64,000 nt of DNA from an uncultured Calditrichaceae bacterium (GTDB lineage Bacteria; Calditrichota; Calditrichia; RBG-13-44-9): positions 2,508 to 66,507 of the forward strand of contig CAYLYM010000005.1 of assembly GCA_964387645.1 (NCBI GenBank), read 5' to 3'. Shown one piece after another: positions 39,433-60,140 of the stretch (its first letter is position 1; each line of letters begins with the position of its first letter). The notes beneath the pieces are model-generated. The model saw only the letters and a list, made by a program, of their open reading frames with translations. It was not told the DNA's origin and ran no database searches. The position numbers and the translations under genes were made by a program.

Positions 39433-39449
39433 AAAAAGGAGGTGTCATC

Positions 39450-44518: not shown

Positions 44519-44664
44519 AGATTTCATTAAATTTAAACTCATGTATTATAAATAACTAGATTTTATAAAAATAATATAGGATATTTTGTTTAATTCATAT
44601 TAAGAATTTTTTTAAAAATTTTTTAAAAAAACACCAATTAAATCAAATTAAGATATATTTAATA

Positions 44665-47393: not shown

Positions 47394-47442
47394 AATGAAA
47401 ATAACTGGGTATTGTTTACTGTAAATGAAAACTTGTTAGAGA

Positions 47443-48012
47443 ATGGAGATTGTTACTGAACAAAATCTCATTGTGGCCTGTCAGGAGGGATCGGAAAAGG
47501 CTTTTAAAGAATTGGTGCAGAAATATTACCAACAGGCTTATGCCATGGCTTTGGTCATGACACAGAACAAAGAAGCCGCTTTTGATATTTCTCAAGAAGC
47601 CTTTTTAAGAATTTATCGCAATTTCTCCTCATTTGATGTGCGGCGTTCTTTTAAAGCCTGGCTATTCACTATTGTTAAAAATCTTTCTTTGAATTACCTG
47701 GAACGAAAAAAACGGCGCTGGATTACTTTCACGGATTTTTTTAAAAGTAAAAATAAACCGGATATTTTCACGGAAGATTTTCCTGAGACGATCGAACGGA
47801 GTGAAATCCGACAGCAAGTGTTGTGGGCTTTGAAACAATTAGGTGAACAGGATCGTGATATCATTTTATTGAGGGACTTTGAATCTTTCTCTTATCAAGA
47901 GATTAGTGATATCCTGGAAATACCGGTTGGGACAGTTATGTCCCGTTTGTATTATGCTCGTAAAAAACTGGCCAGAATTATTAAGGAAGAGCATAATGAA
48001 TCTTCGAAGTAA
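47443..48012 (+). CDS. ECF (sigma-24) RNA polymerase sigma factor
   Basis: Region 2 and region 4 (…SYQEISDILEIPVGTVMSRLYYARKKL). Confidence 0.8.
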   Translation: MEIVTEQNLIVACQEGSEKAFKELVQKYYQQAYAMALVMTQNKEAAFDISQEAFLRIYRNFSSFDVRRSFKAWLFTIVKNLSLNYLERKKRRWITFTDFFKSKNKPDIFTEDFPETIERSEIRQQVLWALKQLGEQDRDIILLRDFESFSYQEISDILEIPVGTVMSRLYYARKKLARIIKEEHNESSK

Positions 48013-48460
48013 AAAAGATTGTAAACAGTTTAAAATCCTTCTTATTAAGCTTGTTGATGATGAGATATCGCCGGAGGAACAGACCAGACTGGATCAACAT
48101 TTATCTACATGCCGTGAATGTCAAAATGATTTGAATGAACTTCGTAAATGGAAGGAGGTGAGTCATTCCATGAAAGGTAAACTTTTGCCTGATATGGCCT
48201 GGGATGAATATTGGAGAAATTTATATAACCGGTTGGAACGTGGTATAAGCTGGATTCTTATTTCGGTGGGTGCTATTATTCTTTTAGGTATTGCAGCGTA
48301 TCATTTTGTGTTGAACTTATTAGAGGATACCCAGCTCGGTTTACTTGAAAAATTAGGAATTTTTGCTCTGGTTTTCGGTTTTGTAATCTTATTTGTTTCG
48401 GTTACCAGAGAAAAATTAATGGTGCGTAAACATGACAAATATAAGGAGATCATCAGATGA
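47996..48460 (+). CDS. anti-sigma factor (zinc-finger, single TM)
   Basis: Start ATG 47996 overlaps the sigma factor by 17 nt; …HLSTCRECQNDL zinc-binding anti-sigma motif; C-terminal TM helices. Upstream extension of the listed ORF rejected. Confidence 0.5.
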   Translation: MNLRSKKDCKQFKILLIKLVDDEISPEEQTRLDQHLSTCRECQNDLNELRKWKEVSHSMKGKLLPDMAWDEYWRNLYNRLERGISWILISVGAIILLGIAAYHFVLNLLEDTQLGLLEKLGIFALVFGFVILFVSVTREKLMVRKHDKYKEIIR

Positions 48461-48771
48461 TTGTTACGACCACTGAAACGATTCCTGGGAAAAAAATTGT
48501 TCGCACTTTAGGTATTGTAAAAGGTAATACCATTCGTGCCAGGCATATCGGTAAGGATATTCTGGCGATATTTAAGAATATTGTAGGCGGTGAGATTGAG
48601 GAATATACCAAACTCATCGCCGAAGCCCGTGAACAGGCAATTGATCGAATGAAAGCCAGTGCAGAGGAATTAGGTGCTAACGCTATCATCAATGTGCGGT
48701 TTTCTACTACTTATATCATGCAAAATGCATCGGAAATATTGGCTTATGGAACCGCGGTTGTGGTAGAATAA
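48457..48771 (+). CDS. YbjQ/UPF0145-family protein
   Basis: MIVTTTETIPGKKIV…LGIVKGNTIRARHIGKDILA… family pattern; ATGA overlap with the anti-sigma gene. Confidence 0.65.
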   Translation: MIVTTTETIPGKKIVRTLGIVKGNTIRARHIGKDILAIFKNIVGGEIEEYTKLIAEAREQAIDRMKASAEELGANAIINVRFSTTYIMQNASEILAYGTAVVVE

Positions 48772-48773
48772 TC

Positions 48774-50183
48774 TTAGACTTGAAGTGTGTATTTTTGCCC
48801 GTATTTAACTATAGTGGTATTGTAATTTTTTTCCTCCAATAATTTTTTAAGGTGAGCCTGGGCATCGGGTTCACCGTGAACCAAAAATATATGTTTGAGT
48901 CGTTTGTAATCTAATTGGGAAATATAGTCAAGAATTTCCTGATAATCGGCATGGGCACTGAAAGCGTTCAATGTCACAACTTCGGCTTTTAATTTATATC
49001 GCTCGCCTAAGATTTTTACTTCGGAGTGTTCTTCTTTGATTCTTCTTCCCAGAGTATGTTTGGCCATGAAACCAACGATCAAGATGGTATTCCTGGGATT
49101 TTCAATATTATGCGCTAAGTGGTGCAAGATGCGACCAGCCTCACACATTCCCGATGAAGAGATAATGATCGCAGGTTCTTTCAATTCATTTAACTGTTTG
49201 CTCTCTTCCAGGCTGGTAATATAATGAAGTTCATTAAATCCGAAGGGATTTTTGTGATGTTGTAGAAAAGCCTCCCGGGTTTCCTGGTCATAACATTCTT
49301 GATGTACTCTAAAAATTGATGTAGCATTTACTGCCATGGGACTGTCTACATAAACGGGCATTCTGGGAATCCGATTCTGATCATTTAATAGATGTAGGAA
49401 AAAGACCAATTCTTGTGTTCGTTCCACCGCGAAGGCAGGAATGATGATTTTCCCGCCGCGTTCGACGGTCCTGTTGACCACCTGTGCTAATTTGTCCACG
49501 GCTGAGTCTATTGGATCGTGCAAACGGTGTCCGTATGTGCTTTCCATGATCAAATAATCAACTGGAGGAATGATTTCCGGATCACGCAAAATAGGCAGGT
49601 TTTTACGGCCTAAATCTCCACTAAACGCTACCCGCATTTCCTGACCATTGCGGTGAATTTCCAGTACGGTTATAGCGGATCCCAAAATATGACCAGCATC
49701 ATAAAAAGTGGCTTTAATTCCATCGGCTACATAAAATTGTCGATGGTAAGAAACGGTGATAAAATAATCTAATACATCAACCACGTCTGACTCAGTGTAT
49801 AAAGGACTTTTGTCAAATACTTCTCCTTTCCGAGTAGCCTTTTTTCGTAAAAATTCAATATCCCTGGCTTGAATATGGGCTGAATCCATCATGATAAGAC
49901 TGGCCAGATCTCGGGAGGCAGGGGTTGAATAAATACTTCCGTTAAAGTTTTTTTGAGGCAATATAGGCAACAGTCCGCAATGATCAAAATGAGCATGGGT
50001 GAGAATGGTTGATGTAATTTTTTGGGCATCAAAGGGCCAGTTCCGATTTTTTTCTTCAGCCTCAGCTCGGCGTCCTTGAAAAGCGCCACAATCAACCATG
50101 ATTTGTTGATCAGCTACTTGTAGAAAATGTTTGGATCCGGTAACTTCTTCCGCACCACCAAAAGAAAATAATTCTACTTGCAT
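48774..50183 (-). CDS. MBL-fold/beta-CASP RNA-metabolising hydrolase
   Basis: HAHFDHCGLLP (HxHxDH); beta-CASP-like C-terminal half; 469 aa. Confidence 0.65.
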   Translation of the reverse strand: MQVELFSFGGAEEVTGSKHFLQVADQQIMVDCGAFQGRRAEAEEKNRNWPFDAQKITSTILTHAHFDHCGLLPILPQKNFNGSIYSTPASRDLASLIMMDSAHIQARDIEFLRKKATRKGEVFDKSPLYTESDVVDVLDYFITVSYHRQFYVADGIKATFYDAGHILGSAITVLEIHRNGQEMRVAFSGDLGRKNLPILRDPEIIPPVDYLIMESTYGHRLHDPIDSAVDKLAQVVNRTVERGGKIIIPAFAVERTQELVFFLHLLNDQNRIPRMPVYVDSPMAVNATSIFRVHQECYDQETREAFLQHHKNPFGFNELHYITSLEESKQLNELKEPAIIISSSGMCEAGRILHHLAHNIENPRNTILIVGFMAKHTLGRRIKEEHSEVKILGERYKLKAEVVTLNAFSAHADYQEILDYISQLDYKRLKHIFLVHGEPDAQAHLKKLLEEKNYNTTIVKYGQKYTLQV

Positions 50184-50611
50184 GGTCTTTACCTCTATTA
50201 AAATCGGTTATGTATTTATATTATTTGAAGAATATAGGATTAATTGTAGCAAATGAAAATGAGTTTTTATTTCTACTTGTAGGGAAAATTTAATTATCAT
50301 CATTATAAATGATCAAAAAGTAGAGCGGGTGAGCAAAGATTTCCTAAACATGAAATTCACATCATCTAATTTTACCAATAAACAGAATAGGAAAATATGA
50401 AACAGAAACAGGAATACTTCAGATTCTTTCTGTGGAATATGTTCGAAGGATAGAATTGAGATGTTACGAAAATATAATCATGTGTTTAAATTTTAACGGA
50501 AAATCTTAATATTTAGAAGGTTATGAGGATTTTTTCTTTAAATAGTTTTTAATCGATTGAGGAGTATGAGTCTTTCTTTGATTTAGAACAAACTCACTTC
50601 AGTATCTTTAC

Positions 50612-51610
50612 TCAGGAGTTGAGATTTAAAATCTCCTTTAGTCGATGCTCACGATGATTCAAAGTAAAATTATTCAATATCCTTTCTCTGGCTTTTTTTC
50701 TTATCGAAGGATCTAACTTGAATGCTTTTTTGATAGCTTCAGCCGCTTCGTTAATTCCCCTTTCGGTAACAATTCCAGTCTGACCTACTATCTCTGGAAG
50801 TGCGCCTGTCTTAAAAACCACAGGGATGCATTCACAAAGCATTGCTTCTACCAGCGCCATACCAAAAGATTCAATCATGGAAAATTGACAATAAATTTTT
50901 GCTCGCTGATAATGATGAATTAATTCATCATATTTTACCCAACCTCGGATTTCAAGATTCTGGGGTATTTCACCTAAATATTTTTTTGCTTCTACACCAA
51001 CACCGATAATTAAAAACCGAAACTCGGGTAATCTTTTGGCTACTTCACAGAATATATCGATTCCTTTTAATTTAATTCTCTGAAAAGAATTACCTGCTCC
51101 TACAGTTATTATTAAATTATCTTTAGGAGCAATTTGATGTGGAAATAGGTCGGTGTTTACACCATTAAAAACCACCTCAATACGAGAATTTGGTATAAGA
51201 TGAGAAGCAGTTCGCCTGATATATTCTGACACGGCTAAATTAACTTTCGCATTTTTGATGGTGAATAATGCACAAAACTTTCGTATGGGATTTTTTAAAG
51301 AGCCATAACCAATTTCTGGTATGTGTACGACGTCGTATCCACCCAAAACCACAAAAAACTCTTTTTTAAAGATTTTTGAAAAAAAAGCAGGAAGTAAGGA
51401 GTGATAATCAGCAAACCAACAAAATATCTTATCAGAACTCCAGATATTAAAAATAAGCCAATAACAAAGTTGTATTTGGCTCCAAAGGTGCCTGGAGAAA
51501 GATTTTCCCTGTCTATATCGAAATTTCTTTATTTTGCCATATTTTTTAAGTATAAAATAGTCATTTCTAACGAATGAACTGAAATCAGGATATATTAAAA
51601 GAATTTTCAT
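50612..51610 (-). CDS. GT4/GT1-family glycosyltransferase
   Basis: C-terminal …GMALVEAM…PVVFKTGALPEIV… (EX7E-like retaining GT motif). Confidence 0.55.
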   Translation of the reverse strand: MKILLIYPDFSSFVRNDYFILKKYGKIKKFRYRQGKSFSRHLWSQIQLCYWLIFNIWSSDKIFCWFADYHSLLPAFFSKIFKKEFFVVLGGYDVVHIPEIGYGSLKNPIRKFCALFTIKNAKVNLAVSEYIRRTASHLIPNSRIEVVFNGVNTDLFPHQIAPKDNLIITVGAGNSFQRIKLKGIDIFCEVAKRLPEFRFLIIGVGVEAKKYLGEIPQNLEIRGWVKYDELIHHYQRAKIYCQFSMIESFGMALVEAMLCECIPVVFKTGALPEIVGQTGIVTERGINEAAEAIKKAFKLDPSIRKKARERILNNFTLNHREHRLKEILNLNS

Positions 51611-51662
51611 AATTATTTTGTTTCTCTATCGGCGTATCGTCGCTTAACCTGGGTTAGTTCCT

Positions 51663-52457
51663 TTAATCAGCAATCTTTTTTGCAAAAATTTCCTGCGTAG
51701 CCTTATTCATCTTAGGGATTTCTCTGTATGGGGGTTCCAATTCGTGGATAGTAAAGTTATACGCTTTGAGAATTTTTTCGACTTCCTCTGGCGATACCCC
51801 CAGGGTTGTATGTACATCGATCAATAGAAAGATATTTTTATTTGATTCCAATATTTTCTGTGCACCTTTAAGAACTTCCAATTCTGATCCTTCGACATCG
51901 ATTTTTATCATGTCAACTCTTTCATGCTTCATTTCTTTCAGGACTGAATCAAGGGTTTTTTGCTCAATCTCAATGGATTCCCCAGTTCCAGTGTCGAGAT
52001 CGGGTAATAAACTATGCCAGCCGCTTTTCTTGCCAATAAAAAGTCTGGTCTTCCCATTTTTAGCGCCAAGAGCATAAGGAAATAAAGTGATGTTTTTATA
52101 ATTATTTAGCTCGATGTTTTTTTGAATCCACTCACAATTTTGAGGTTCGGGCTCGAAAGTAAAAACCAGCCCTTGCTCACCAACAATTTTTGCAGCAATG
52201 AGGGAAAAATAACCTTTATTAGCGCCAATATCTACAAATGTCATTCCTGGTTTGAGAAAGGAACAAAGCGTTTCAGTTTTTCTTGTTTCAAAAACTCCCA
52301 GGGCCCTCTTGAACATCATCGGTGATTCTTTAATATTGAGATATATTTTTCCTCCCAGGTAGTTATATACACGATATTGATCCGAAAGAAAAGGTCGAAT
52401 AATATTATAATTTTTCGCGATCAATTTCTTAAGAATATGAAGAGGGTTTTTTCTCAT
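51663..52457 (-). CDS. FkbM-family methyltransferase
   Basis: FVDIGANKGYFSL…FTFEPEPQN motif block. Confidence 0.6.
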   Translation of the reverse strand: MRKNPLHILKKLIAKNYNIIRPFLSDQYRVYNYLGGKIYLNIKESPMMFKRALGVFETRKTETLCSFLKPGMTFVDIGANKGYFSLIAAKIVGEQGLVFTFEPEPQNCEWIQKNIELNNYKNITLFPYALGAKNGKTRLFIGKKSGWHSLLPDLDTGTGESIEIEQKTLDSVLKEMKHERVDMIKIDVEGSELEVLKGAQKILESNKNIFLLIDVHTTLGVSPEEVEKILKAYNFTIHELEPPYREIPKMNKATQEIFAKKIAD

Positions 52458-53910
52458 TTTCCTTGCCCCGTAATTTTATTCCTATTTGCTCAAGTTCTGT
52501 CTGGTGAAAAAAACCAAAATAATACAATAACACAGGATATACCACGAGTAATACAAATTTCAATGCCATTGAAATGAAAATATTGTCAATTTTAATCAGA
52601 AAAGATAATCCATACAGAAAAAATCCAATCGTAATTATTTTTAGAGCTCTTGGCCAGTCCCAGGGTATGGGGTAAATCTTTTGCAATGGAAAGTAATTGA
52701 ATATAGTGATCACAAAATAAGATACGACTGTGGCTATGGCGGCCCCCAGAATACCCATCTGAGGAATTAAAATCATGTTCAAAATAATATTTAAAAGCGC
52801 ACCAAGAATTGTGGTTGAGGCTATTATTTTTGTTTTTTTCATAGTAGCCAGGGCATTAGTAAAGATGGAACGCAAGCCAAACAACAGGTAAGCAAACGTA
52901 ATCAGTGGAATGATAATCGCTCCCTGTGCGTATTCAGGTGTAGTCACGATGAGTAAAATTTCCCGAGCAAACATGGAGAGGAATAAGAAGAAAATGAAAC
53001 CGGCTAATAAGAAATAAGTAAAGTATTTTCTATATAATTTCTTAATATCCATTTCATCAGCCAATCGAAACATCATTGGAGAAAAAGCCTGGCGAAATGG
53101 CGTTATAAGAACCATGTTCATAATCATGCCAAATCTATACGACATAGAATAAATGCCCACTTCGGTCATGTTCCGGAAGATTTTCAGGAAATAACGGTCA
53201 GCCAGAGTTAAAAGTGTTAAAGACACGCCGACGAAAATTAAAGGCAATCCATATTGGAGGGATTCTGAAAGTACTCCCCGTGAAAATTTGAGTCTAAATC
53301 GTTTGATGAAATAAATCATGATATAAGAGAAGCTTAAAATGCCGACGTACAATTTGGATTCTACAATACCTAATACACCTTGATTCAGGATGCCTACTTT
53401 ATAAATGTTTAATCCCAATAAAAGTAGAAAATGAATCAACGTGAAAACCACGAAGGAAAACGCTTTTTCTTCTGCCTGGAGGAGAACAACAAAAATGCCC
53501 TGGAACATACCGAAGAAAATAATTAATAATATATAACGGAAAAAAACAATATTTTCGGGTGTCAAAGAAAGGAATTGTCTCACCCAAAAATCAGGATAGA
53601 TGTATAAAGATCCCAGGAAGATTAAATTGAAAACGAAGAGAAAAATCAGATTGGTAAAGACCAGTTCATCGGCTTTATTTTTGCTTTTATACTGATTCAG
53701 GAAACGAAGAATAGACTGGGACAAGCCAAGGCCGAGCAGTGGTTTTCCCAACAGTTCAAGCAATTCCAGAATAGCTACCACGCCATATTCGTCTGGTGCC
53801 AATTTTCTGGCATACAGCGGGATCAGCAAAAACGCCACTAATTTGATAAGTATGTTCCCAATGCTATAGATAGAGGATTTCGTAAGTAATTGACGGGTTT
53901 CTTTTAGCAT
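52429..53910 (-). CDS. polysaccharide flippase (Wzx-like, MOP superfamily)
   Basis: 12-14 TM helices; N-terminal …IGNILIKLVAFLLIPLYARKL… typical of Wzx. Confidence 0.65.
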   Translation of the reverse strand: MLKETRQLLTKSSIYSIGNILIKLVAFLLIPLYARKLAPDEYGVVAILELLELLGKPLLGLGLSQSILRFLNQYKSKNKADELVFTNLIFLFVFNLIFLGSLYIYPDFWVRQFLSLTPENIVFFRYILLIIFFGMFQGIFVVLLQAEEKAFSFVVFTLIHFLLLLGLNIYKVGILNQGVLGIVESKLYVGILSFSYIMIYFIKRFRLKFSRGVLSESLQYGLPLIFVGVSLTLLTLADRYFLKIFRNMTEVGIYSMSYRFGMIMNMVLITPFRQAFSPMMFRLADEMDIKKLYRKYFTYFLLAGFIFFLFLSMFAREILLIVTTPEYAQGAIIIPLITFAYLLFGLRSIFTNALATMKKTKIIASTTILGALLNIILNMILIPQMGILGAAIATVVSYFVITIFNYFPLQKIYPIPWDWPRALKIITIGFFLYGLSFLIKIDNIFISMALKFVLLVVYPVLLYYFGFFHQTELEQIGIKLRGKENEKKPSSYS

Positions 53911-54014
53911 ATTTTTATCACATGAATGATTAGAAATTTACTGTAAATAGAAAGAACGTTTTAATCTTTGAACTGTTCTTAAATCCCAATCTATCTTCTT
54001 ATAGAAAAATCTTT

Positions 54015-55001
54015 TCAACTGTGATAAAAACGGTAGATACGATTATAAAGATATCGTTTTAAATTTTCGCCACGAGCTTTTTTCCAGAATGATCCGCTTT
54101 GCGAAATAATTTCATATCCATAATCTCGCAGTACAAACGGAAAAATTTTGTTAACATAATAAATTTCCATGGGATGGATTTCTTTTTTCCATTTATTCAG
54201 ACGAGATGATTCAATTCCACGAAAGGGCTCTCCGGAAGTACTGTTTCCCACCCATGGTTTACCCTGGTATGTGGGAATTAGCAAAATATCTTCAAAAGGT
54301 AAATTTAAAAATTGACAAATTTTTTTGATCTGTAATTCTGGTTCTGTGACCAGATCTTCATATTTCAGGATGTAATAGTTTTGAATAATCTTTGAGTTTT
54401 TATAAAGATAGTAATAACTGTTATAAAGGGATTTTATTACCCGGGGTATGAGTGCGAAATCATGGTATATGCTTTTAAACTTTCTCAATGATACAATGTT
54501 GGCGTAGGGATTCCGCACAATATGGATGAACTTTGCCCTTGGGAAGAAGGTGGACAGTTCAACGGCAAATTCGGCGTTTTCTATGGATTTTTCAACAATT
54601 CTGATTTCCTCAGGGAGAAATTTCCCGGAGACAGAATAATAAATTGCTCTGAAATAGATTTCAATCCTTTCTTTCTCGGACTGGGTATATTTAATTTCAG
54701 AGAAGACCTCCTTAAATTTATCTTCATTAAATAGGCCTTTTGCTATTGAATCGCTATAGGGATCTTCAGAGCTATTACAAGTATGAATCCAGTTACAGAA
54801 ACTTTCGATTATTTCATCATTTGTGAGATTTTGAGGTCTTTGAGCACGGTACTCGTAATCCACCCAGTATTTCATATTTTGAAAATAATGTGCTTCTATT
54901 GGGATTGTGTAAATCTGTGAATGGCCATTAAAGATGCTTCTTAAAAGGCTGGTACCTGATTTATGTGCCCCTAATAAGAAAATAGGTTCTTGATTCATCA
55001 T
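54015..55001 (-). CDS. PAPS-dependent sulfotransferase
   Basis: 5'-PSB motif GAHKSGTSLL and 3'-PB motif IVRNPYANIVSL. Confidence 0.7.
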   Translation of the reverse strand: MMNQEPIFLLGAHKSGTSLLRSIFNGHSQIYTIPIEAHYFQNMKYWVDYEYRAQRPQNLTNDEIIESFCNWIHTCNSSEDPYSDSIAKGLFNEDKFKEVFSEIKYTQSEKERIEIYFRAIYYSVSGKFLPEEIRIVEKSIENAEFAVELSTFFPRAKFIHIVRNPYANIVSLRKFKSIYHDFALIPRVIKSLYNSYYYLYKNSKIIQNYYILKYEDLVTEPELQIKKICQFLNLPFEDILLIPTYQGKPWVGNSTSGEPFRGIESSRLNKWKKEIHPMEIYYVNKIFPFVLRDYGYEIISQSGSFWKKARGENLKRYLYNRIYRFYHS

Positions 55002-55269
55002 TTTAGCTAACTTATCTATATTAAATCATTTTAATAAAACAATTTACAGGATATTCCTTTCGAACAAAATAATTTTTTATTAAGATGAGCAAACCGTTTT
55101 CGGTTTCTTTGTAAAAAAGAAATTCGGAATACAAATTTATATCTGCGAATATGATAAGTTCTATCTAACAAATTCTCAGGGTCAAATTTTTACCTGGCTT
55201 TAGAAATGTCCCAATTGTGCAATTTGTAGAGTCATCGATAATGAATAAAAGAGAAATCACTTCCATTGA

Positions 55270-55803
55270 TTGTTTTATAGAATTCTTCCTTTTAAATTAA
55301 ATCCTTTCACTAATGATTGTTTAAAAAAAATGAAAATGAAATTCTCTGAAGACTTGCCGGATGTTATTGACCAGGAAATCGATTTTATCGGACAATTATT
55401 TCTTGAATATGAACAGTTCACAACAAATCCAGATGTGCTTAATCGACAGGATGGAATAAGGAGTTTAGAAGGCATTTTTTACGATTTTGTTGACCATGTT
55501 GTTCACATTATTAGATTCGGATTTGATCTTGTGAACTATCAAGAAGAATCCGATGAATCACCTTTCATATCTGCTGAAGATGACCGTATAAAATTTTTTT
55601 TAGGATTAATATTATCGGATAAAACATTGAATCAATTTGATCCGTTTTTAAAGTTTTATTCAGGTTTTTCCTATTTATATCCATCGAAAATCGATCTGAA
55701 TATTTTAACTAATTTAATTTCAGATTTTCCACATACTGTAGAATCAGTCTCTGCGGATTTAAGAATTTTTGCTCAAAAATTGCGAGGAGGCGATGCCTGG
55801 TAA
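55270..55803 (+). CDS. hypothetical protein (177 aa)
   Basis: Intact ORF preceding the epimerase gene; no recognisable motif. Confidence 0.35.
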   Translation: MFYRILPFKLNPFTNDCLKKMKMKFSEDLPDVIDQEIDFIGQLFLEYEQFTTNPDVLNRQDGIRSLEGIFYDFVDHVVHIIRFGFDLVNYQEESDESPFISAEDDRIKFFLGLILSDKTLNQFDPFLKFYSGFSYLYPSKIDLNILTNLISDFPHTVESVSADLRIFAQKLRGGDAW

Positions 55804-56788
55804 AATCCAGAAAATTGTTTTTATGTTACGTAAATTCATCAAAGATATTAGTCGAGACCGCCAGATATATGAAATTTCCAAAGATTTACATTCCCAGCAA
55901 CTAAAAGAATATTATTTCATTATGACCGAAGAACAGATGCTCTCTGGCCATAGCCAGCAATTTCATTTCGATGAAGAAGGTATTCCGATTATTCCCACCT
56001 ACATTGATGTAGAAGAACAAAAAATGATCTATTATCCGATTTCTATTGGCCAATATGGTCTGGCGATATGGCATACATATTTGAAAACAAAGTCTGAAAA
56101 AGACTTAAACCGGTTCTTGAAAATCGCCGAATGGTTTTATCAAAATGGAATACAAGATGAAAAATTAGGCGTTTACTGGTTGACGGATGTGGATAAGCCA
56201 GCATACCGGATCTCAAAGCCCTGGAAGTCGGCCTTTTCGCAAGCTCGTGGAATAAACATTTTGATGCGGGCGTACCAGGTAACGGGAAAGAAAGAATATG
56301 AGGAGGTATCCCAACAAGCATTACTTCCATTTTTATATTCTGTAAAAGAGGGCGGGGTAAGTTGTTCAACGAAATATGGCCCGTTTTATGAAGAGTATCC
56401 GGCTGATGTTCCTGTTCTGGTATTAAATGGGCATATCTTTGCTCTGTGCGGGGTGTACGACTTTATTCGCACCCATCCTGAAGATCAACAGGCGCGAGAG
56501 ATATTCGATCGTGGCGTTAGCAGTTTGGAATCACTTCTGCCCCAATACGACCTGGGTTTCTGGAGCAAGTATTCGTTGTGTGAAGCAGACTTTCATCCAG
56601 AGGTCGATCCAGCAACCATCGGTTATCATCATTTGCATATTATTCAGCTTGAATTAATGTACCAACTGACTGGAAAGGAGATGTTTAAGGAATATGCTGA
56701 AAGATGGAAGAACTATGTAAATCTTAAAAATATTCTGAAAATGTATCGAATTAAATATAGAGCTTTGAGGAAAATGAACAGGTTGTAA
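55793..56788 (+). CDS. D-glucuronyl C5-epimerase-like protein (C5-epim_C domain)
   Basis: KPWKSAFSQARGINILMRAYQVTGKKEYEEVSQQALLPF…EGGV aligns with Glce GWHSAMAQGQAISTLVRAY…. Start chosen at ATG 55793 after GAGGAGG (the listed ORF starts at 55769). 11-nt overlap with the upstream ORF. Confidence 0.5.
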   Translation: MPGKIQKIVFMLRKFIKDISRDRQIYEISKDLHSQQLKEYYFIMTEEQMLSGHSQQFHFDEEGIPIIPTYIDVEEQKMIYYPISIGQYGLAIWHTYLKTKSEKDLNRFLKIAEWFYQNGIQDEKLGVYWLTDVDKPAYRISKPWKSAFSQARGINILMRAYQVTGKKEYEEVSQQALLPFLYSVKEGGVSCSTKYGPFYEEYPADVPVLVLNGHIFALCGVYDFIRTHPEDQQAREIFDRGVSSLESLLPQYDLGFWSKYSLCEADFHPEVDPATIGYHHLHIIQLELMYQLTGKEMFKEYAERWKNYVNLKNILKMYRIKYRALRKMNRL

Positions 56789-56803
56789 TTTTTCCTTACT
56801 CTC

Positions 56804-59572
56804 TTAATCTCTCATTTTTGCAAAATATTCCTTTAGGAATTGACCAGTATATGAATGGGGATTCGCTGCAATTTCTCTGGGATTCCCCTGAGCCACTATC
56901 CGCCCACCTCTGTCTCCACCCTCCGGTCCTAAATCAATAATCCAGTCGGCATATTGGATCATATCCAGATTATGTTCGATGAGCAGGATGGAAGCGCCAC
57001 CTTTGATGAGTTCATCAAAAGCATTCAGAAGTTTGGAAATATCATGGAAATGAAGCCCAGTGGTGGGTTCATCAAAAATGAAAAGAACGTTTCGGTGTGA
57101 TTTACGGCTCAGATGAGCAGCCAGTTTGATTCGCTGTGCTTCACCGCCTGAAAGGGTAGTAGCGGGCTGACCTAATTTTAAGTATCCCAATCCTACTTTC
57201 TGAAGCATCTTCAGTTTGTTCGCCAGAGATGGATATTTATGGAAAAAATCGATTGCCTGATCAACTGTCATTTCAAGAATATCGTGAATATTTTTTCCAT
57301 GATAGTGAACATTCAATATTTCAGGTTTATAACGTTTGGCCTGGCAGGCTTCGCAGGGCAGGTACACATCGGCCAGGAATTGCATTTCAATCTTGATTTG
57401 TCCGTCTCCCTGGCAGACCTCACATCGACCACCCGGAACGTTAAAGGAGAAATGTCCAGGCGAATAGCCATGAGCTCTTGCTGCTGGAGTCGATGCAAAG
57501 ATCTTTCGAATATCATCAAAAGCTTTTATGTAAGTTACAGGGTTACTTCGCGGCGTTCTCCCAATCGGGGATTGATCCACCATCTCCATGCGGTCAATCT
57601 GGTGTAAACCACGGATGGCATCATGATCGCCGATTTTTGTCACAGTTTGTCCTGAATAAGCTAAATAACCCCGATATAGAATCTCCTCTACCAGGGTACT
57701 TTTTCCTGAACCTGAAACCCCGGTGATGCATACAATAATTCCCAACGGTATTTCCACCGTTATGTTTTTGAGATTATGCTCGCGGGCACCAATAATGGTA
57801 ATTGATTTTCCAGAAGATTTACGATACTGGTTTCGAAGAGGAATGCGCTTTTCCTTCCTAAAGTATTGTGCGGTAAGACTATTTCCACTTTTAAGGAAAT
57901 TAGAAAAATTCCCCTGAAACATCACCTGACCACCATTTTCCCCGGCTGCCGGACCTAAATCTATCATGTATCCGGCATTTTCCACGACTCTTTTTTCATG
58001 CTCGACGACTACTACAGTGTTTCCTCTTCCCACTAACGATTTGAGTATATTCACCAATTTGTTCACATCTCGCGGGTGTAGGCCAATAGTCGGTTCGTCT
58101 AATATATAAAGAGTTTGGCTTAGAGCCGATCCCAGGGCGGTGGCTAAGTTGATCCTTTGAAATTCACCACCGCTTAAAGTGTTTGCCCGACGGTTTAAAT
58201 TTAGGTACTCCAGACCCACATCAATCAAATAACGTAAACGGTTTCTGGTTTCCTGGAGAAGTTGTCCGGCAATTTGCTGCTCATATTCGGAAATTTTTAA
58301 ATTTTCAAGAAACTGATACAGATCCGCCACGGTCATATTTACAAGTTCGGATATATTTCTATCTTGAATTTTGACTGCCAGTGCTTCCGGACGTAGTCTT
58401 TGCCCACCGCATTCAGTACAGGTGAAGTAACTCCGGTAACGGCTGATAAAAACGCGAACGTGGATCTTATATTTTTTACCTTCTAATTTTTTAAAAAAGC
58501 CACGTACACCGATAAAATTGTCCCCACCATTAATAATGTAATCCTTGTGTTCACGGGACAATTCCTGAAAGGGTACATCCATCGGAATGTTATGCCGAGC
58601 GGCCGCATAGAATAGTTGGGTCATAAAATGCCGGTAGGCTGGTGTTGTCCAGGGAGCAATGGCGCCCTGTCGAAGACTTTTGGTAGGATCAGGAACAATT
58701 TTATTGATATCCAGATCCATCATATCTCCAAATCCCTGACATCCAGGACATGCCCCAAAAGGATTGTTAAAAGAAAAAAGTCGAGGTTCAGGTTCAACCA
58801 TTTTTGTACCACAGTGTTTGCAAATAAGTTGTTGATTGAACTGCTTCATCTCGCCGTTGGACAGAATAAGATACATAAAACCTTCTCCCCCTTTGAAAGC
58901 TGTTTCAATGGATTCTTTTAATCGGAGTCTGTCCATGCTGGAGGTTTTTGTACCTCGGTCTACGACTACAATTACTTCGGTGAGTTCGGAGTTGAAAGAT
59001 TCATCTTTTCGCAGATCAATAATGCGACCCTGATGCCAGATACGCAAAAAGCCTTGTGAAATAAGCAAGTCTTTGATTCGGGAGATATTTGCATTGTTTG
59101 AAAGACGGATTGGAAACGCAATAAAGAAGGGGTTTTTTTCAGGCAACGATTCAATATATTGGATGACATCATCGGACTGTTCTTTTTTAACCCTGGCACC
59201 GCATTGATAGCAAAATATTTTTCCTATCCTGGCAAAAAGAAGTCTTAAATAATCATATATTTCTGTCACCGTACCAACGGTTGATCTTGGATTTCCTGAA
59301 GGCGTTTTCTGCTGAATAGCAATGGCTGGACAAATGCCGGTGATGGATTCAACTTCGGGTTTGGGCATTTTTTCAAGGAACTGTCTGGCATAAGTTGATA
59401 AAGATTCAACATATCGGCGCTGGCCTTCGGCAAATAATGTATCGAAAGCAAGGCTGGATTTTCCTGATCCGCTTGGACCGGTTATAACTACTAATTCACT
59501 ATGTGGAATTTTTACATTGATGTTTTTTAAGTTATGTAATCTGGCACCGCGTATTTCAATGTATTTTATCAT
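56804..59572 (-). CDS. uvrA: excinuclease ABC subunit A
   Basis: Two ABC ATPase modules (GPSGSGKSSL, GVSGSGKSTL), zinc-finger Cys clusters, 922 aa. Confidence 0.95.
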   Translation of the reverse strand: MIKYIEIRGARLHNLKNINVKIPHSELVVITGPSGSGKSSLAFDTLFAEGQRRYVESLSTYARQFLEKMPKPEVESITGICPAIAIQQKTPSGNPRSTVGTVTEIYDYLRLLFARIGKIFCYQCGARVKKEQSDDVIQYIESLPEKNPFFIAFPIRLSNNANISRIKDLLISQGFLRIWHQGRIIDLRKDESFNSELTEVIVVVDRGTKTSSMDRLRLKESIETAFKGGEGFMYLILSNGEMKQFNQQLICKHCGTKMVEPEPRLFSFNNPFGACPGCQGFGDMMDLDINKIVPDPTKSLRQGAIAPWTTPAYRHFMTQLFYAAARHNIPMDVPFQELSREHKDYIINGGDNFIGVRGFFKKLEGKKYKIHVRVFISRYRSYFTCTECGGQRLRPEALAVKIQDRNISELVNMTVADLYQFLENLKISEYEQQIAGQLLQETRNRLRYLIDVGLEYLNLNRRANTLSGGEFQRINLATALGSALSQTLYILDEPTIGLHPRDVNKLVNILKSLVGRGNTVVVVEHEKRVVENAGYMIDLGPAAGENGGQVMFQGNFSNFLKSGNSLTAQYFRKEKRIPLRNQYRKSSGKSITIIGAREHNLKNITVEIPLGIIVCITGVSGSGKSTLVEEILYRGYLAYSGQTVTKIGDHDAIRGLHQIDRMEMVDQSPIGRTPRSNPVTYIKAFDDIRKIFASTPAARAHGYSPGHFSFNVPGGRCEVCQGDGQIKIEMQFLADVYLPCEACQAKRYKPEILNVHYHGKNIHDILEMTVDQAIDFFHKYPSLANKLKMLQKVGLGYLKLGQPATTLSGGEAQRIKLAAHLSRKSHRNVLFIFDEPTTGLHFHDISKLLNAFDELIKGGASILLIEHNLDMIQYADWIIDLGPEGGDRGGRIVAQGNPREIAANPHSYTGQFLKEYFAKMRD

Positions 59573-59912
59573 CTGTGAATACTTAACTCCTCTAAGCTCA
59601 TCAATAAATCATAAACTTTTCATTAAATTATAAAGAATTTTGTAAAAATCATTCTCCAACCCAAATAAACGAATATTTAAATTATTTCAGAATGTCAATA
59701 AATGTTTCCAAATAGTCGAAAATATATAATAAGCTTGTTGAAATTAAATCTTAATATTATTTTATAGGTCATTGTTATAAAATATTAAAATTTTAATATA
59801 TGGATGAACATTTTTCATACAAATTTGAATTCGAGAGATATTTTTATTTTTAGTGGTATATAATATTTGCAAGGTCTTTAATGTTGTTTTACATAATTTG
59901 ATTGATATTTAT

Positions 59913-60140
59913 ATGAAGATACTAGCAGAAATTCCAGTACAAAAAAAGGTAAGAATTGTAGATATTTTTGGTGGCAGAAATGCCAGGCAGACTCTTGCCC
60001 AGATGGGAATCGGTGTTGGAAGCCAAGTGATTGTTAGGAGAAATGCACCTTTTTCTGGGCCCATATTAGTGGAAAATCATGGAACTACGGTTGCAATAGG
60101 AAGAGGTCTGGCTTCAAAAATTATGGTTGAGGAAATATGA
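59913..60140 (+). CDS. feoA: ferrous iron transport protein A
   Basis: SH3-like FeoA pattern (…VRIVDIFGGRNARQTLAQMGIGVGSQVIVRRNAPFSGPILVE…); internal ATG chosen; ATGA overlap with feoB. Confidence 0.7.
   Translation: MKILAEIPVQKKVRIVDIFGGRNARQTLAQMGIGVGSQVIVRRNAPFSGPILVENHGTTVAIGRGLASKIMVEEI

What the first reader, a model, noticed from the sequence alone, without database searches (positions are those of the whole stretch)
50612..56788. Glycan locus pairing a sulfotransferase with a D-glucuronyl C5-epimerase-like enzyme (heparan-sulfate-like chemistry)
The minus-strand block holds a GT4 glycosyltransferase, an FkbM methyltransferase, a Wzx flippase and a sulfotransferase with textbook 5'-PSB (KSGTS) and 3'-PB (RNP…S) PAPS-binding motifs. 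Divergently, there is a protein whose core (PWKSAFSQARGINILMRAYQVTG…) matches the C-terminal catalytic domain of animal heparosan-N-sulfate glucuronate C5-epimerase. In animals, GlcA to IdoA epimerisation coupled with sulfation defines heparan and dermatan sulfate. Bacterial epimerase homologs are rare, and a linked sulfotransferase is rarer still. The locus therefore predicts a Wzx-exported, sulfated and possibly iduronate-containing and O-methylated surface glycan.
Basis: partly seen in the sequence, partly recalled or inferred. Interest (0 to 1): 0.65.

Follow-up and report, generated by a model that had tools for sequence, protein, structure and literature searches.

The report
Bacterial sugar-coat cassette: C5-epimerase plus sulfotransferase
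An uncultured sediment-type bacterium carries a compact six-gene set that probably flips one acidic sugar at C5, sulfates and methylates a lipid-linked surface sugar chain, then exports it; every enzyme type is already known, and this bacterial pairing of epimerase with sulfotransferase was not found described in the searches run.

Summary
Window 50612-56788 encodes a minus-strand operon of GT4, FkbM methyltransferase, Wzx flippase and a PAPS-type sulfotransferase (ST). Divergent from it lie a small unknown ORF and a 331-aa GLCE-family C5-epimerase.

- **Epimerase:** PF06662 E = 2.9e-48. All five human GLCE catalytic residues are conserved. The AF2 model's best PDB match is GLCE.
- **Sulfotransferase:** the PAPS-binding motifs are intact.
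- **Rarity claim is wrong:** this single-domain "minimal GLCE" has 4,123 50%-identity cluster representatives in public data. It has been known in O-antigen/CPS loci since 2011.
- **"Heparan-sulfate-like" is too strong:** the window holds no heparosan-type synthase and no NDST. The ST is Sulfotransfer_3 (nearest solved relatives CurM-ST and TPST). All enzymes are cytoplasmic.
- **Linkage:** in 42 related loci the epimerase's usual partner is a ~435-aa GT4-like gene. The ST appears in only 5, but recurs adjacent to the epimerase in a KSB1 genome bin and another contig. It always sits beside Wzx.
- **Best reading:** tailoring of a lipid-linked oligosaccharide before flipping, as in the Halobacterium N-glycan pathway, whose epimerase is not homologous.

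PAPS genes, uronic-acid supply, initiating transferase and polymerase are not in the window. Interest is moderate.

The parts
50612..51610 (-). GT4 (retaining-type, GT-B) glycosyltransferase, 332 aa; last gene of the minus-strand operon
   Evidence: PF00534 E = 1.3e-19 and PF13692 E = 2.2e-17. Orthologs at 40-49% identity lie 1-4 kb from the epimerase in L021, L025-L029, L033, L034, L038 and L043 (30% in L065). It has no credible TM segment.
51663..52457 (-). FkbM-family SAM methyltransferase, 264 aa (probable sugar O-methyltransferase)
   Evidence: PF05050 E = 3.6e-24, TIGR01444 E = 2.1e-34 (119 bits against a 37.7-bit cut-off), and PF05575 V. cholerae RfbT E = 2.2e-8. It overlaps the Wzx stop by 29 nt.
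52429..53910 (-). Wzx-type (MOP superfamily, Polysacc_synt) lipid-linked oligosaccharide flippase, 493 aa
   Evidence: PF01943 E = 6.6e-20 and PF13440 E = 9.7e-13. It has 13 hydrophobic segments. It sits next to the ST here and in L009, L010, L011, L012 and L084.
54015..55001 (-). PAPS-type sulfotransferase, 328 aa (Sulfotransfer_3/1); first gene of the minus-strand operon
   Evidence: PF13469 E = 3.9e-25 and PF00685 E = 3.6e-13. The closest solved relatives are CurM ST (2e-11) and TPST1/2. It has 408+ homologs at 45-66% identity in KSB1, Calditrichota, Halothermothrix, Halobacillus and Balneolales. No TM segment.
54948..54962 (-). 5'-phosphosulfate-binding loop K14-S-G-T-S18 of the ST
   Evidence: Read from the sequence. 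In 120 homologs, of which 7 have a gap at these columns: K 111, S 112, G 112, T 109, S/T 111.
54489..54515 (-). 3'-phosphate-binding motif R163-N-P-Y-A-N-I-V-S171 of the ST
   Evidence: R163, N164 and P165 are invariant in 120/120 homologs. S171 is present in 101/120.
55002..55329 (.). 328-bp AT-rich divergent intergenic region between the ST operon and the ORF157-epimerase pair (presumed bidirectional promoter region)
   Evidence: Gene spacing and sequence. The sigma-70 consensus scan was no better than shuffled sequence, so no promoter is demonstrated.
55330..55803 (+). ORF157: small protein of unknown function, translationally coupled to the epimerase by an 11-nt overlap. The mechanical ORF starts at TTG 55270; ATG 55330 is more likely.
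   Evidence: No Pfam or NCBIfam hit. The only homolog found is the 173-aa gene in the same position in L003 (31% identity, E = 2e-20, same 11-nt overlap). It is not related to the GT4-like gene that occupies this position in most relatives. The single-sequence AF2 model is all-helical but low confidence (pLDDT 65).
55793..56788 (+). Minimal GLCE-family hexuronyl C5-epimerase, 331 aa: alpha-helical catalytic domain only
   Evidence: PF06662 E = 2.9e-48. phmmer against human GLCE 6HZZ gives E = 1.2e-26. The AF2 model has pLDDT 93.4 and pTM 0.92. Top Foldseek PDB hits are human and zebrafish GLCE at E about 1e-13, rmsd 2.2-3.0 A over about 217 columns and 30-31% identity; the next folds score about 1e-4. 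A GAGGAGG RBS lies before ATG 55793.
56393..56398 (+). E201-Y202, equivalent to human GLCE catalytic E499-Y500 (motif YEEYP)
   Evidence: Alignment to 6HZZ. Both residues are invariant in 48/48 family members. Coordinates.
56426..56428 (+). N212, equivalent to human GLCE N510
   Evidence: Alignment. The column is N in 34 and D in 14 of 48 family members.
56570..56572 (+). Y260, equivalent to human GLCE Y560
   Evidence: Alignment. Invariant in 48/48 members.
56624..56626 (+). Y278, equivalent to human GLCE Y578
   Evidence: This column is where the 6I01 Y578F mutant chain differs from 6HZZ. Invariant in 48/48 members.

Best explanation
This is a compact chromosomal cassette for tailoring and exporting a surface glycan. 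The host is an uncultured diderm bacterium, most likely of the Calditrichota/KSB1 group.

**Proposed mechanism (inferred)**
1. A short oligosaccharide is built on a polyprenyl-phosphate carrier at the cytoplasmic face of the inner membrane. The GT4 adds one of its sugars.
2. The 331-aa GLCE-family enzyme abstracts and re-adds the C5 proton of an internal hexuronic acid, using the same Glu/Tyr/Tyr set as animal GLCE. GlcA to L-IdoA is the most likely reaction.
3. The soluble ST sulfates the unit using cytoplasmic PAPS, and the FkbM enzyme O-methylates it.
4. The ST-associated Wzx flips the finished anionic unit to the periplasm.
5. Initiation, any polymerisation or ligation, and precursor supply are encoded elsewhere in the genome.

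**Shown here:** gene identities, catalytic and cofactor motifs, the epimerase fold, absence of signal peptides and TM segments, operon structure, and recurrence of the linkage.

**Inferred:** the substrate, the order of steps, the identity of the carrier, and the fate of the glycan.

The epimerase belongs to a conserved Calditrichota/KSB1 glycan module. The ST-Wzx pair is an occasional accessory to that module.
For: **Gene identities and motifs:**

**Epimerase**
- All five human GLCE catalytic positions are conserved, and four are invariant in 48 relatives.
- The AF2 model is confident and its best structural match is GLCE by nine orders of magnitude in E-value.

**Sulfotransferase**
- The PAPS-binding loops and an E36/H38 pair are near-invariant in 120 homologs.

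**Topology and operon structure**
- Only Wzx has TM segments; the ST, epimerase, FkbM and ORF157 have none.
- Packing is tight: overlaps of -29 and -11 nt and gaps of 52 and 104 nt.

**Recurrence of the linkage**
- L009 (KSB1 GCA_016931935.1) has GT4-like gene, Epi, ST and Wzx co-directional with a 108-nt Epi-ST gap.
- L010 has Epi, ST and Wzx with a 17-nt Epi-ST gap.
- L084 has Epi, two STs, a methyltransferase and Wzx in one roughly 20-kb operon.
- The ST sits next to Wzx in every context examined, including the Halothermothrix orenii Wzx/Wzy cluster.

**Conserved module:** of 42 non-redundant epimerase loci, Wzx is present in 25, the ~435-aa GT4-like gene in 32 and a YfhO-type GT-C in 26.

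**Precedents**
- E. coli O112ab and S. boydii 15 O-antigens contain L-IdoA, and their Wzx-type clusters carry a 323-aa PF06662 gene (PMC3068255, PMC7685785).
- In Halobacterium salinarum, a DolP-tetrasaccharide is epimerised, then sulfated, then methylated in the cytoplasm before flipping (PMC12624080 Fig. 8, PMC11980604).
Against: - No biochemical data exist for this clade.
- The window contains no nucleotide-sugar dehydrogenase and no PAPS-synthesis genes. It also lacks an initiating phosphoglycosyltransferase, a Wzy and a ligase.
- None of 42 related loci carries a nucleotide-sugar dehydrogenase within 10 kb. The presence and identity of the uronic acid are therefore unproven.
- The one characterised bacterial enzyme and animal GLCE act on long polymers. 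GLCE needs at least 6 sugars (PMC13308652). Activity on a short lipid-linked unit is therefore an extrapolation.
- The ST accompanies the epimerase in only 5 of 42 loci, so the two enzymes are not obligately coupled.
- Most relatives have a ~435-aa GT4-like gene upstream of the epimerase. This window lacks it, so its pathway may differ from the clade norm.
Confidence: 0.6

Rival explanations
1. The pathway logic is the same, but the epimerase acts on a different uronic acid than GlcA. Candidates are ManA, ManNAcA or ManNAc3NAcA converted to the L-gulo epimer, or GalA converted to L-AltA. The product would then be neither iduronate-containing nor GAG-like.
For: - Sugar-nucleotide genes linked to the epimerase in relatives point to mannose or ManNAc chemistry rather than UDP-GlcA. 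ManC-type guanylyltransferases occur in 7 of 42 loci and UDP-GlcNAc 2-epimerase in 3 of 42.
- L084 adds a VimE-like UDP-2,3-diacetamido-2,3-dideoxy-glucuronate deacetylase homolog (E = 7e-50, below the curated cut-off) and an AsnB-type amidotransferase of the XrtA/PEP-CTERM-system kind by its NCBIfam matches. A uronate-amidating role for such enzymes is from my own knowledge.
- No Ugd-type dehydrogenase lies near any of the 42 loci.
- Raedts et al. predicted paralogs with different substrate specificities (PMC3068255).
Against: - Every member of the GLCE family with a known reaction converts GlcA to IdoA: animal GLCE, Bermanella RED65_08024 as cited in PMC13308652, and the association with the IdoA-containing O112ab antigen.
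- The catalytic constellation is identical to that of GLCE.
- None of the suggestive linked genes is present in this window.
Confidence: 0.22
2. This is the first reader's strong reading: the locus makes a true heparan-sulfate- or heparin-like glycosaminoglycan. That would be a heparosan-type GlcA-GlcNAc polymer epimerised and sulfated at polymer level.
For: - A GLCE-family epimerase with intact catalytic residues sits next to a sulfotransferase.
- Sulfated GAG-like exopolymers have been reported from anaerobic marine bacteria and granular sludge (PMC7356697, PMC10483923).
Against: - Only a single GT4 is present. The window has no GT2/GT45 (KfiA/KfiC, PmHS) or EXT-like synthase, and no N-deacetylase/N-sulfotransferase.
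- The ST is Sulfotransfer_3, nearest to CurM-ST and TPST.
- Export is by Wzx. E. coli K5 heparosan uses the ABC/Kps route (from my own knowledge).
- The ST and epimerase are cytoplasmic, and the epimerase lacks the GLCE domains that form the long dimeric substrate cleft (PMC13308652).
Confidence: 0.05
3. The ST and the epimerase are not functionally coupled. The ST-Wzx pair is a mobile decoration module, and the epimerase belongs to a separate conserved module with the GT4-like gene and YfhO. They lie side by side here only because glycan genes cluster, and sulfate is added to a residue unrelated to the epimerised one.
For: - The ST is absent from 37 of 42 epimerase loci, whereas the GT4-like gene is present in 32 and YfhO in 26.
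- The ST-Wzx pair occurs without any epimerase in L011 and in Halothermothrix orenii.
- In this window the two are divergently transcribed.
Against: - In L009 and L010 the ST follows the epimerase directly on the same strand, 108 and 17 nt away.
- Here they share one 328-bp intergenic region.
- Both enzymes are cytoplasmic and there is a single flippase in the cassette, so both would act on the same unit even if on different residues.
- In Halobacterium, sulfation depends strictly on prior epimerisation (PMC12624080).
Confidence: 0.1
4. The C5-epim_C protein is not an epimerase. It is instead an alpha/alpha-toroid lyase or hydrolase, or a non-catalytic glycan-binding protein.
For: - Weaker structural matches include GH76, GH88, a polysaccharide lyase and cellobiose 2-epimerases.
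- GLCE chemistry (C5 proton abstraction) is mechanistically close to that of lyases.
Against: - GLCE matches are about nine orders of magnitude better in E-value than any other fold neighbour.
- The GLCE-specific E/Y/N/Y/Y constellation is conserved.
- The protein is cytoplasmic and sits in a biosynthetic operon.
Confidence: 0.03

Closest known systems
Prokaryotic PF06662 'candidate D-glucuronyl C5-epimerases' in O-antigen/CPS clusters (Raedts et al. 2011, PMC3068255). Examples are the 323-aa gene of E. coli O112ab and S. boydii 15, whose O-antigen contains L-IdoA, and the characterised Bermanella marisrubri RED65_08024.
   Same: - Same protein family.
- Same short architecture of about 300-450 aa.
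- Embedded among glycosyltransferases and a flippase of a surface-glycan locus.
   Different: - None of those loci was reported with a sulfotransferase.
- The present clade (Calditrichota/KSB1, 54-77% identity among the members listed) is much more conserved than type-specific O-antigen genes. It is normally paired with a ~435-aa GT4-like gene and a YfhO-type GT-C.
- Raedts et al. predicted an N-terminal signal peptide for many of the prokaryotic candidates they listed; this one has none.
[quoted passage not shown]
   Same: - Homologous alpha-helical catalytic domain: 30-31% identity and rmsd 2.2-3.0 A over about 217 columns.
- Identical catalytic residues E499/Y500/N510/Y560/Y578.
- The N-terminal YPIxIxQYGL motif is also shared.
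   Different: - It lacks the beta-hairpin dimerisation domain and the beta-sandwich domain.
- It is cytoplasmic rather than in the Golgi lumen.
- It is not accompanied by NDST, EXT or HS O-sulfotransferase homologs.
- The likely substrate is a short lipid-linked unit, not a polymer of at least 6 sugars.
Halobacterium salinarum N-glycan pathway: Agl25-28 glycosyltransferases, Agl32 epimerase, Agl30/31 sulfotransferases, an unidentified methyltransferase, and Agl29 flippase (PMC12624080, PMC11980604, PMC13308652)
   Same: - Same functional set and probably the same logic. A lipid-linked oligosaccharide is built, C5-epimerised, sulfated and methylated in the cytoplasm, then flipped.
- The ST genes are numbered consecutively with the epimerase gene (VNG1056C and VNG1057C; VNG1058H), which suggests adjacency.
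   Different: - That system is archaeal and uses a DolP carrier and the AglB oligosaccharyltransferase.
- Agl32 is an AglQ/AGE-like toroid that lacks all GLCE catalytic residues, so it is not homologous in any useful sense.
- No oligosaccharyltransferase is linked to the bacterial locus.
Bacterial sulfated-polysaccharide gene clusters with cytoplasmic sulfotransferases and Wzx. Examples are Synechocystis synechan xss (bioRxiv 10.1101/2021.02.01.429190), Vibrio sp. KMM 8419 CPS (PMC11641403), and the Pontiella F21 putative sulfated-GAG cluster with GT4, GT2, tuaB, a methyltransferase, an ST and yfhO (PMC7356697).
   Same: - A PF13469-type ST lies beside a Wzx/TuaB-type flippase, a methyltransferase and GT4/GT2 genes. 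Relatives of this locus also carry YfhO.
   Different: - A term search of the Pontiella paper found no mention of an epimerase. The Synechocystis and Vibrio papers were not checked for one.
- The present cassette is much smaller (six genes) and lacks initiation and polymerisation genes.

Membership tests
GLCE / PF06662 D-glucuronyl C5-epimerase family | Significant match to the C5-epim_C profile above the gathering score | tested here: met
   164.3 bits against a 23.3-bit cut-off, E = 2.9e-48, profile positions 15-187 of 188.
GLCE / PF06662 D-glucuronyl C5-epimerase family | Catalytic residues E499, Y500, N510, Y560 and Y578 (human numbering; list from PMC13308652 citing Debarnot 2019) | tested here: met
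   They align to E201, Y202, N212, Y260 and Y278. E, Y, Y and Y are invariant in 48/48 relatives, and N212 is N or D.
GLCE / PF06662 D-glucuronyl C5-epimerase family | Alpha-helical catalytic-domain fold | tested here: met
   The AF2 model has pLDDT 93.4. The top 8 Foldseek PDB hits are all GLCE chains at E = 1e-13 to 2e-12.
GLCE / PF06662 D-glucuronyl C5-epimerase family | N-terminal beta-hairpin (dimerisation) and beta-sandwich domains of the animal enzyme | tested here: not met
   The protein is only 331 aa. Only about 217 columns align, with TM-score 0.36 normalised to the target. This is typical of prokaryotic members (PMC3068255), so it does not exclude family membership. It does exclude an animal-like substrate cleft.
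GLCE / PF06662 D-glucuronyl C5-epimerase family | GlcA to IdoA conversion in a glycan | not testable with these tools
   This needs an enzyme assay or glycan analysis.
PAPS-dependent sulfotransferases (Sulfotransfer_3 / Sulfotransfer_1) | Profile match plus the 5'-PSB loop and the 3'-PB motif | tested here: met
   PF13469 E = 3.9e-25 and PF00685 E = 3.6e-13. K14-S-G-T-S and R163-N-P...S171 are conserved in 120 homologs.
PAPS-dependent sulfotransferases (Sulfotransfer_3 / Sulfotransfer_1) | Candidate catalytic base near the acceptor site | tested here: inconclusive
   The E36-x-H38 motif ('IEAHY') aligns with the 'ELH' motif of the CurM ST and is near-invariant. The catalytic role of those CurM residues is recalled from memory and was not checked.
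PAPS-dependent sulfotransferases (Sulfotransfer_3 / Sulfotransfer_1) | PAPS supply in the same genome (ATP sulfurylase plus APS kinase) | not testable with these tools
   Most ORFs of 110 aa or more in 1-44000 were Pfam-scanned, apart from a few small ORFs. The six locus ORFs were scanned. The remaining ORFs in 44000-64000 were assigned by reading their translations. None is a PAPS-synthesis gene. The rest of the genome is not available.
Heparan-sulfate / heparin-type GAG biosynthesis system | Heparosan-type backbone synthase (KfiA/KfiC, PmHS or EXT: GT45/GT2/GT47/GT64) | tested here: not met
   The only glycosyltransferase in the locus is a GT4. No GT2, GT45, GT47 or GT64 was found in the window. 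A YfhO query found nothing either; no GT2 query was run against the window.
Heparan-sulfate / heparin-type GAG biosynthesis system | N-deacetylase/N-sulfotransferase and HS-type 2-O, 6-O and 3-O sulfotransferases | tested here: not met
   There is a single ST. Its best family is Sulfotransfer_3, and its nearest solved structures are the CurM ST and TPST1/2 rather than HS sulfotransferases.
Heparan-sulfate / heparin-type GAG biosynthesis system | GLCE-type C5-epimerase | tested here: met
Wzx/Wzy-dependent O-antigen/CPS/EPS locus | Wzx flippase | tested here: met
   PF01943/PF13440 match and 13 hydrophobic segments.
Wzx/Wzy-dependent O-antigen/CPS/EPS locus | Wzy polymerase, chain-length regulator, and initiating phosphoglycosyltransferase | tested here: not met
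   None is in the window. Homologs of the H. orenii Wzy and Bac_transf proteins are also absent from all 42 related loci. They may be encoded elsewhere, or a YfhO-type GT-C may take over in relatives.
Halobacterium-type (Agl) cytoplasmic epimerise, sulfate, methylate, flip pathway | Functional set of GT + C5-epimerase + ST + methyltransferase + flippase, all acting before flipping | tested here: met
   All five functions are encoded in 6.2 kb. All but the flippase lack TM segments and signal peptides. The model is from PMC12624080 Fig. 8.
Halobacterium-type (Agl) cytoplasmic epimerise, sulfate, methylate, flip pathway | Agl32/AglQ-family epimerase and an AglB oligosaccharyltransferase | tested here: not met
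   The epimerase here is GLCE-type with the GLCE catalytic residues that Agl32 lacks (PMC13308652). No oligosaccharyltransferase is in the window. It therefore works like that pathway but is not a member of it.

The most novel reading that the evidence does not exclude
Calditrichota/KSB1 bacteria make a conserved envelope glycoconjugate whose lipid-linked repeat unit is C5-epimerised in the cytoplasm by a minimal, monomeric GLCE homolog. In a subset of lineages, including this one, the resulting L-iduronate-containing unit is then O-sulfated.

This would be the first bacterial sulfated-iduronate glycan. It would also be the first GLCE-family enzyme shown to act on a short lipid-linked oligosaccharide rather than a polymer. 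That would make it the bacterial, homologous-to-animal counterpart of the Halobacterium Agl32/Agl30 step. It would also be a small soluble epimerase/ST pair of possible use in chemo-enzymatic GAG synthesis.
Probability: 0.25. Interest if true: 0.6.

Novelty: new variant of a known kind. Interest (0 to 1): 0.4.

Why it matters
L-iduronic acid with sulfate gives heparan and dermatan sulfate their protein-binding versatility. Outside animals the combination has been demonstrated only in a haloarchaeal N-glycan, which uses a non-homologous epimerase.

A bacterial locus that joins a true GLCE homolog to a PAPS sulfotransferase and a flippase recurs in a poorly known phylum. It gives a concrete, testable candidate for bacterial sulfated-uronate glycans, such as those inferred chemically in marine sediments and granular sludges. 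It also offers a small soluble epimerase that may be easier to express than animal GLCE.

The finding is otherwise incremental:
- All component families are known.
- The genes are already auto-annotated correctly in public records.
- The chemistry remains a prediction.

Tried and rejected
1. **Promoter and terminator scan of 50100-57000.** Counts equal those of shuffled sequence, so it gives no information.
2. **tRNA and Rfam scans of the window.** Nothing was found, so there is no integration-site or riboswitch signal.
3. **Compositional island test.** Locus GC equals window GC at 0.350, so there is no evidence of recent transfer.
4. **ORF177/157 as a remnant of the ~435-aa GT4-like gene found upstream of the epimerase in most relatives.** Rejected: there is no similarity (best E = 0.16).
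5. **Homolog search for ORF157.** Only itself and the L003 gene were found. The single-sequence AF2 model has pLDDT 65, too poor for a fold search.
6. **Genome-contig scan.** It returned only two loci because single-sequence patterns were too specific. The alignment-based metagenome scan was far more productive.
7. **Search for a linked nucleotide-sugar dehydrogenase, initiating transferase or Wzy, to pin down the substrate.** None was found in the window or in 42 related loci. The H. orenii Wzy and Bac_transf queries may miss distant families.
8. **Agl32 as a homolog.** Rejected after reading PMC13308652: it is a different fold subfamily with no shared catalytic residues.

Full report

Yes. 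The ORF listing shows four tightly packed minus-strand ORFs: 50612-51610, 51663-52457, 52429-53910 and 54015-55001. Their spacings are +52, -29 and +104 nt. Divergent from them are two overlapping plus-strand ORFs ending at 56788.

Pfam and NCBIfam results:

| Gene | Coordinates | Best profile match |
|---|---|---|
| GT4 | 50612-51610(-) | PF00534, E = 1.3e-19 |
| FkbM methyltransferase | 51663-52457(-) | PF05050, E = 3.6e-24; TIGR01444, E = 2.1e-34; weaker V. cholerae RfbT, E = 2.2e-8 |
| Wzx-type flippase | 52429-53910(-) | PF01943, E = 6.6e-20 |
| Sulfotransferase | 54015-55001(-) | PF13469, E = 3.9e-25; PF00685, E = 3.6e-13 |
| C5-epimerase | 55769-56788(+) | PF06662, E = 2.9e-48 (164 bits vs 23.3-bit cut-off) |

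The quoted ST motifs exist. K14-S-G-T-S18 and R163-N-P...S171 are near-invariant in 120 homologs, as is an E36-x-H38 pair.

Two refinements are needed:
- The epimerase almost certainly starts at ATG 55793, giving 331 aa. A GAGGAGG Shine-Dalgarno sequence precedes it, and the homologs are about 331 aa long.
- A sixth gene, ORF157 (55330-55803), overlaps that ATG by 11 nt.

**2. The epimerase**

- phmmer against the PDB finds only GLCE, with human 6HZZ at E = 1.2e-26.
- In that alignment the residues equivalent to human E499/Y500 (motif YEEYP), N510, Y560 and Y578 are all conserved. The Y578 column is marked directly by the Y578F mutant chain 6I01. The residue list comes from PMC13308652, citing Debarnot 2019.
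- In a 48-member family alignment, E201, Y202, Y260 and Y278 are invariant and N212 is N or D.
- An AF2 model built on that alignment is confident, with pLDDT 93.4 and pTM 0.92.
- Its eight best Foldseek PDB hits are human and zebrafish GLCE chains: E about 1e-13, rmsd 2.2-3.0 A, about 217 columns, 30-31% identity. The next folds (GH76, cellobiose 2-epimerase) appear only at about 1e-4.
- The protein consists of the helical catalytic domain alone. It lacks the beta-hairpin and beta-sandwich domains that build the long dimeric cleft of GLCE.

Family membership is solid.

**3. How rare is it?**

It is not rare.
- An exhaustive HMMER scan of 1.84 billion 50%-identity representatives finds 4,123 relatives at E <= 1e-3 and 2,434 at E <= 1e-10. 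The best 150 are mostly single-domain proteins of about 300-350 aa.
- The word-indexed search finds 619 clusters. The best 120 are 54-77% identical, nearly all 321-332 aa, and those that are named come from Calditrichia, Calditrichaeota or candidate division KSB1 genome bins.
- Raedts et al. 2011 (PMC3068255) catalogued PF06662 homologs in many bacteria and archaea. They noted that these lie among glycosyltransferases of O-antigen/CPS loci. One is the 323-aa gene of E. coli O112ab and S. boydii 15, whose O-antigen contains L-IdoA (see also PMC7685785).

**4. Organism and setting**

- The rest of the window is ordinary bacterial housekeeping. It includes HrcA/DnaJ, Pta, an ECF sigma/anti-sigma pair, ComEA, a TonB-dependent receptor, PilM-like and Fe-S MinD-like proteins, a beta-CASP nuclease, UvrA, FeoAB and AlaX. 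GC is about 35%.
- It is therefore a diderm bacterium. By best hits it is most likely Calditrichota/KSB1.
- The window contains no other polysaccharide genes. It has no nucleotide-sugar dehydrogenase, no APS kinase or ATP sulfurylase, no initiating transferase and no Wzy.
- Locus GC equals window GC.
- The beta-CASP gene also neighbours the epimerase in four relatives. The epimerase therefore sits in a partly conserved chromosomal position, not on an obvious island.

**5. What travels with what**

I collected neighbourhoods for relatives through exact-protein look-ups. I added an alignment-driven scan of metagenome contigs, which returned 80 loci. I then scored all loci with profile HMMs built in-session.

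Among 42 non-redundant epimerase loci with at least 8-9 kb of context:

| Partner | Loci with partner (of 42) |
|---|---|
| ~435-aa GT4-like gene (Glyco_transf_4 N-domain hits only), usually immediately upstream | 32 |
| YfhO-type GT-C membrane protein | 26 |
| Wzx | 25 |
| ManC-type nucleotidyltransferase | 7 |
| ST-family hit | 5 |
| UDP-GlcNAc 2-epimerase | 3 |
| Nucleotide-sugar dehydrogenase | 0 |

- The window's short GT4 has 40-49% orthologs in ten of these loci and a 30% homolog in L065.
- The five ST-positive loci are the window, L009 and L084 (strong hits) and L065 and L080 (weak hits). The short contig L010 is a further strong case.
- Where the ST is present the arrangement is tight:
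  - L009 (KSB1, GCA_016931935.1) has GT4-like gene, Epi, ST and Wzx co-directional.
  - L010 has Epi, ST, a 60-aa ORF and Wzx.
  - L084 has one roughly 20-kb operon: two GT2s, a GT4-like gene, an AsnB-type amidotransferase, Epi, a UDP-GlcNAc 2-epimerase, a VimE-like deacetylase homolog, a GT4, two STs, a methyltransferase and Wzx.
- The ST is adjacent to Wzx in every context, including loci without the epimerase. These are L011 and the classical Wzx/Wzy cluster of Halothermothrix orenii.

The epimerase therefore belongs to a conserved Calditrichota/KSB1 glycan module. The ST-Wzx pair is an accessory decoration-and-export unit that has joined it in a minority of lineages. The window and its closest relative with context (L003) are atypical. 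They lack the GT4-like gene and carry ORF157 in its place.

**6. Mechanism**

- A Kyte-Doolittle scan finds TM segments only in Wzx. The ST, epimerase, FkbM and ORF157 have none, and there are no signal peptides.
- PAPS and SAM are cytoplasmic cofactors.
- The most economical model is that a polyprenyl-phosphate-linked oligosaccharide is assembled, C5-epimerised at an internal hexuronate, sulfated and O-methylated on the cytoplasmic face. Wzx then flips it.
- This is the order established genetically and by NMR for the Halobacterium salinarum N-glycan (PMC12624080 Fig. 8, PMC11980604). There the steps are glycosyltransferases, Agl32 epimerase, Agl30/31 sulfotransferases, an unidentified methyltransferase and the Agl29 flippase.
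- In that system sulfation fails without prior epimerisation. The ST genes (VNG1056C and VNG1057C) carry locus tags consecutive with that of the epimerase gene (VNG1058H).
- Agl32 is not a GLCE homolog and lacks all GLCE catalytic residues (PMC13308652). The resemblance is therefore functional only.
- The model differs fundamentally from animal heparan sulfate, where polymer-level modification occurs in the Golgi lumen.

**7. Why "heparan-sulfate-like" is too strong**

- The window has no heparosan-type synthase and no NDST.
- The ST is Sulfotransfer_3, and its nearest solved relatives are the CurM activating ST (E = 2e-11) and tyrosylprotein STs.
- Export is by Wzx.
- The epimerase lacks the extended cleft of GLCE.
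- The identity of the uronic acid is open. In relatives the linked sugar-nucleotide genes hint at mannose, ManNAc or di-N-acetyl-uronate chemistry. An L-gulo product is therefore a real alternative to L-IdoA.

**8. Novelty and score**

- Each component and each pairwise context is known: PF06662 genes in Wzx-type loci, and STs in Wzx-type sulfated-polysaccharide loci such as synechan, Vibrio KMM 8419 and the Pontiella cluster.
- Public records already auto-annotate these very proteins correctly.
- Literature searches found no report of a bacterial locus that joins a GLCE-family epimerase to a sulfotransferase. They also found no bacterial glycan with sulfated IdoA.
- I rate it a new variant of a known kind, with interest 0.4.
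- The main uncertainties are PAPS and uronate supply, substrate identity and the fate of the flipped unit. Resolving them requires the full genome and biochemistry.

Noticed in passing
window 50612-56788 (public records MHA1768086-MHA1768091): The locus proteins are deposited at NCBI on a 6,097-bp contig of a genome bin labelled 'Promethearchaeota archaeon' (Asgard archaea). The window is plainly bacterial and diderm: it carries a TonB receptor, HrcA/DnaJ, an ECF sigma factor and UvrA. Its best hits are Calditrichia and KSB1. That small contig is therefore probably mis-binned. The same proteins also occur on an unnamed 68,627-bp NCBI contig.
   Followed up: partly
window 55330-55803 (+); L003 9490-10011: A small all-alpha protein of about 157 aa has no Pfam or NCBIfam family. 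It overlaps the epimerase start codon by exactly 11 nt both here and in L003, at 31% identity. It occupies the slot that a ~435-aa GT4-like gene fills in most relatives. Its function is unknown, and the single-sequence AF2 model reaches only pLDDT 65.
   Followed up: partly
L004, L006, L007, L009, L001 and about 30 further loci (for example L009 7565-8872 and 8910-9875): The strongest conserved partner of this epimerase clade is not a sulfotransferase. It is a ~435-aa GT4-like gene directly upstream, often overlapping, found in 32 of 42 loci. It has weak TuaH (teichuronic acid) and WcaI similarity. A YfhO-type GT-C membrane protein is present in 26 of 42 loci. Together these suggest a conserved, uncharacterised envelope-glycan pathway in Calditrichota/KSB1.
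   Followed up: partly
42 epimerase loci (L001-L092): No nucleotide-sugar dehydrogenase (UDPG_MGDP_dh) lies within 10 kb of the epimerase in any of the 42 loci, although the enzyme needs a hexuronate substrate. Either the dehydrogenase is always encoded elsewhere or the substrate is made another way.
   Followed up: no
L084 4809-19086: A single roughly 20-kb co-directional operon combines the epimerase with two different sulfotransferases and an AsnB-type amidotransferase. It also holds a UDP-GlcNAc 2-epimerase, a VimE-like deacetylase homolog (UDP-2,3-diacetamido-2,3-dideoxy-glucuronate type; DUF7033), a methyltransferase and Wzx. These hint at a heavily modified di-N-acetyl-uronic acid glycan.
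   Followed up: partly
window 52429-55001; L009, L010, L011, L012, L084: This sulfotransferase family (about 328 aa, 45-66% identity) spans KSB1, Calditrichota, Halothermothrix, Halobacillus, Virgibacillus, Balneolales and Bacteroidota. It was adjacent to a Wzx flippase in every context examined. This suggests a co-adapted sulfate-then-flip module that moves between glycan loci.
   Followed up: partly
window 48774-50183 (-); L032, L039, L042, L050: The beta-CASP/MBL-fold nuclease gene next to the cassette is also the immediate neighbour of the epimerase in four relatives at 40-41% identity. There it has no intervening ST, Wzx, FkbM or GT4 genes. The four-gene operon may therefore have been inserted between the epimerase and this gene.
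   Followed up: no
window 4464-5084, 12525-13622, 14599-16290, 27702-28745: Several sizeable ORFs (206, 365, 563 and 347 aa) have no Pfam match. Two of them sit beside a PilM-like gene (13648-14586) and may be divergent pilus or secretion components.
   Followed up: no
window 37359-39094: Two tandem MinD/ParA-type P-loop ATPases carry inserted 4Fe-4S ferredoxin domains. Three ORFs of 113-124 aa follow them (39091-40250) and were not scanned. The cluster is typical of anaerobes.
   Followed up: no
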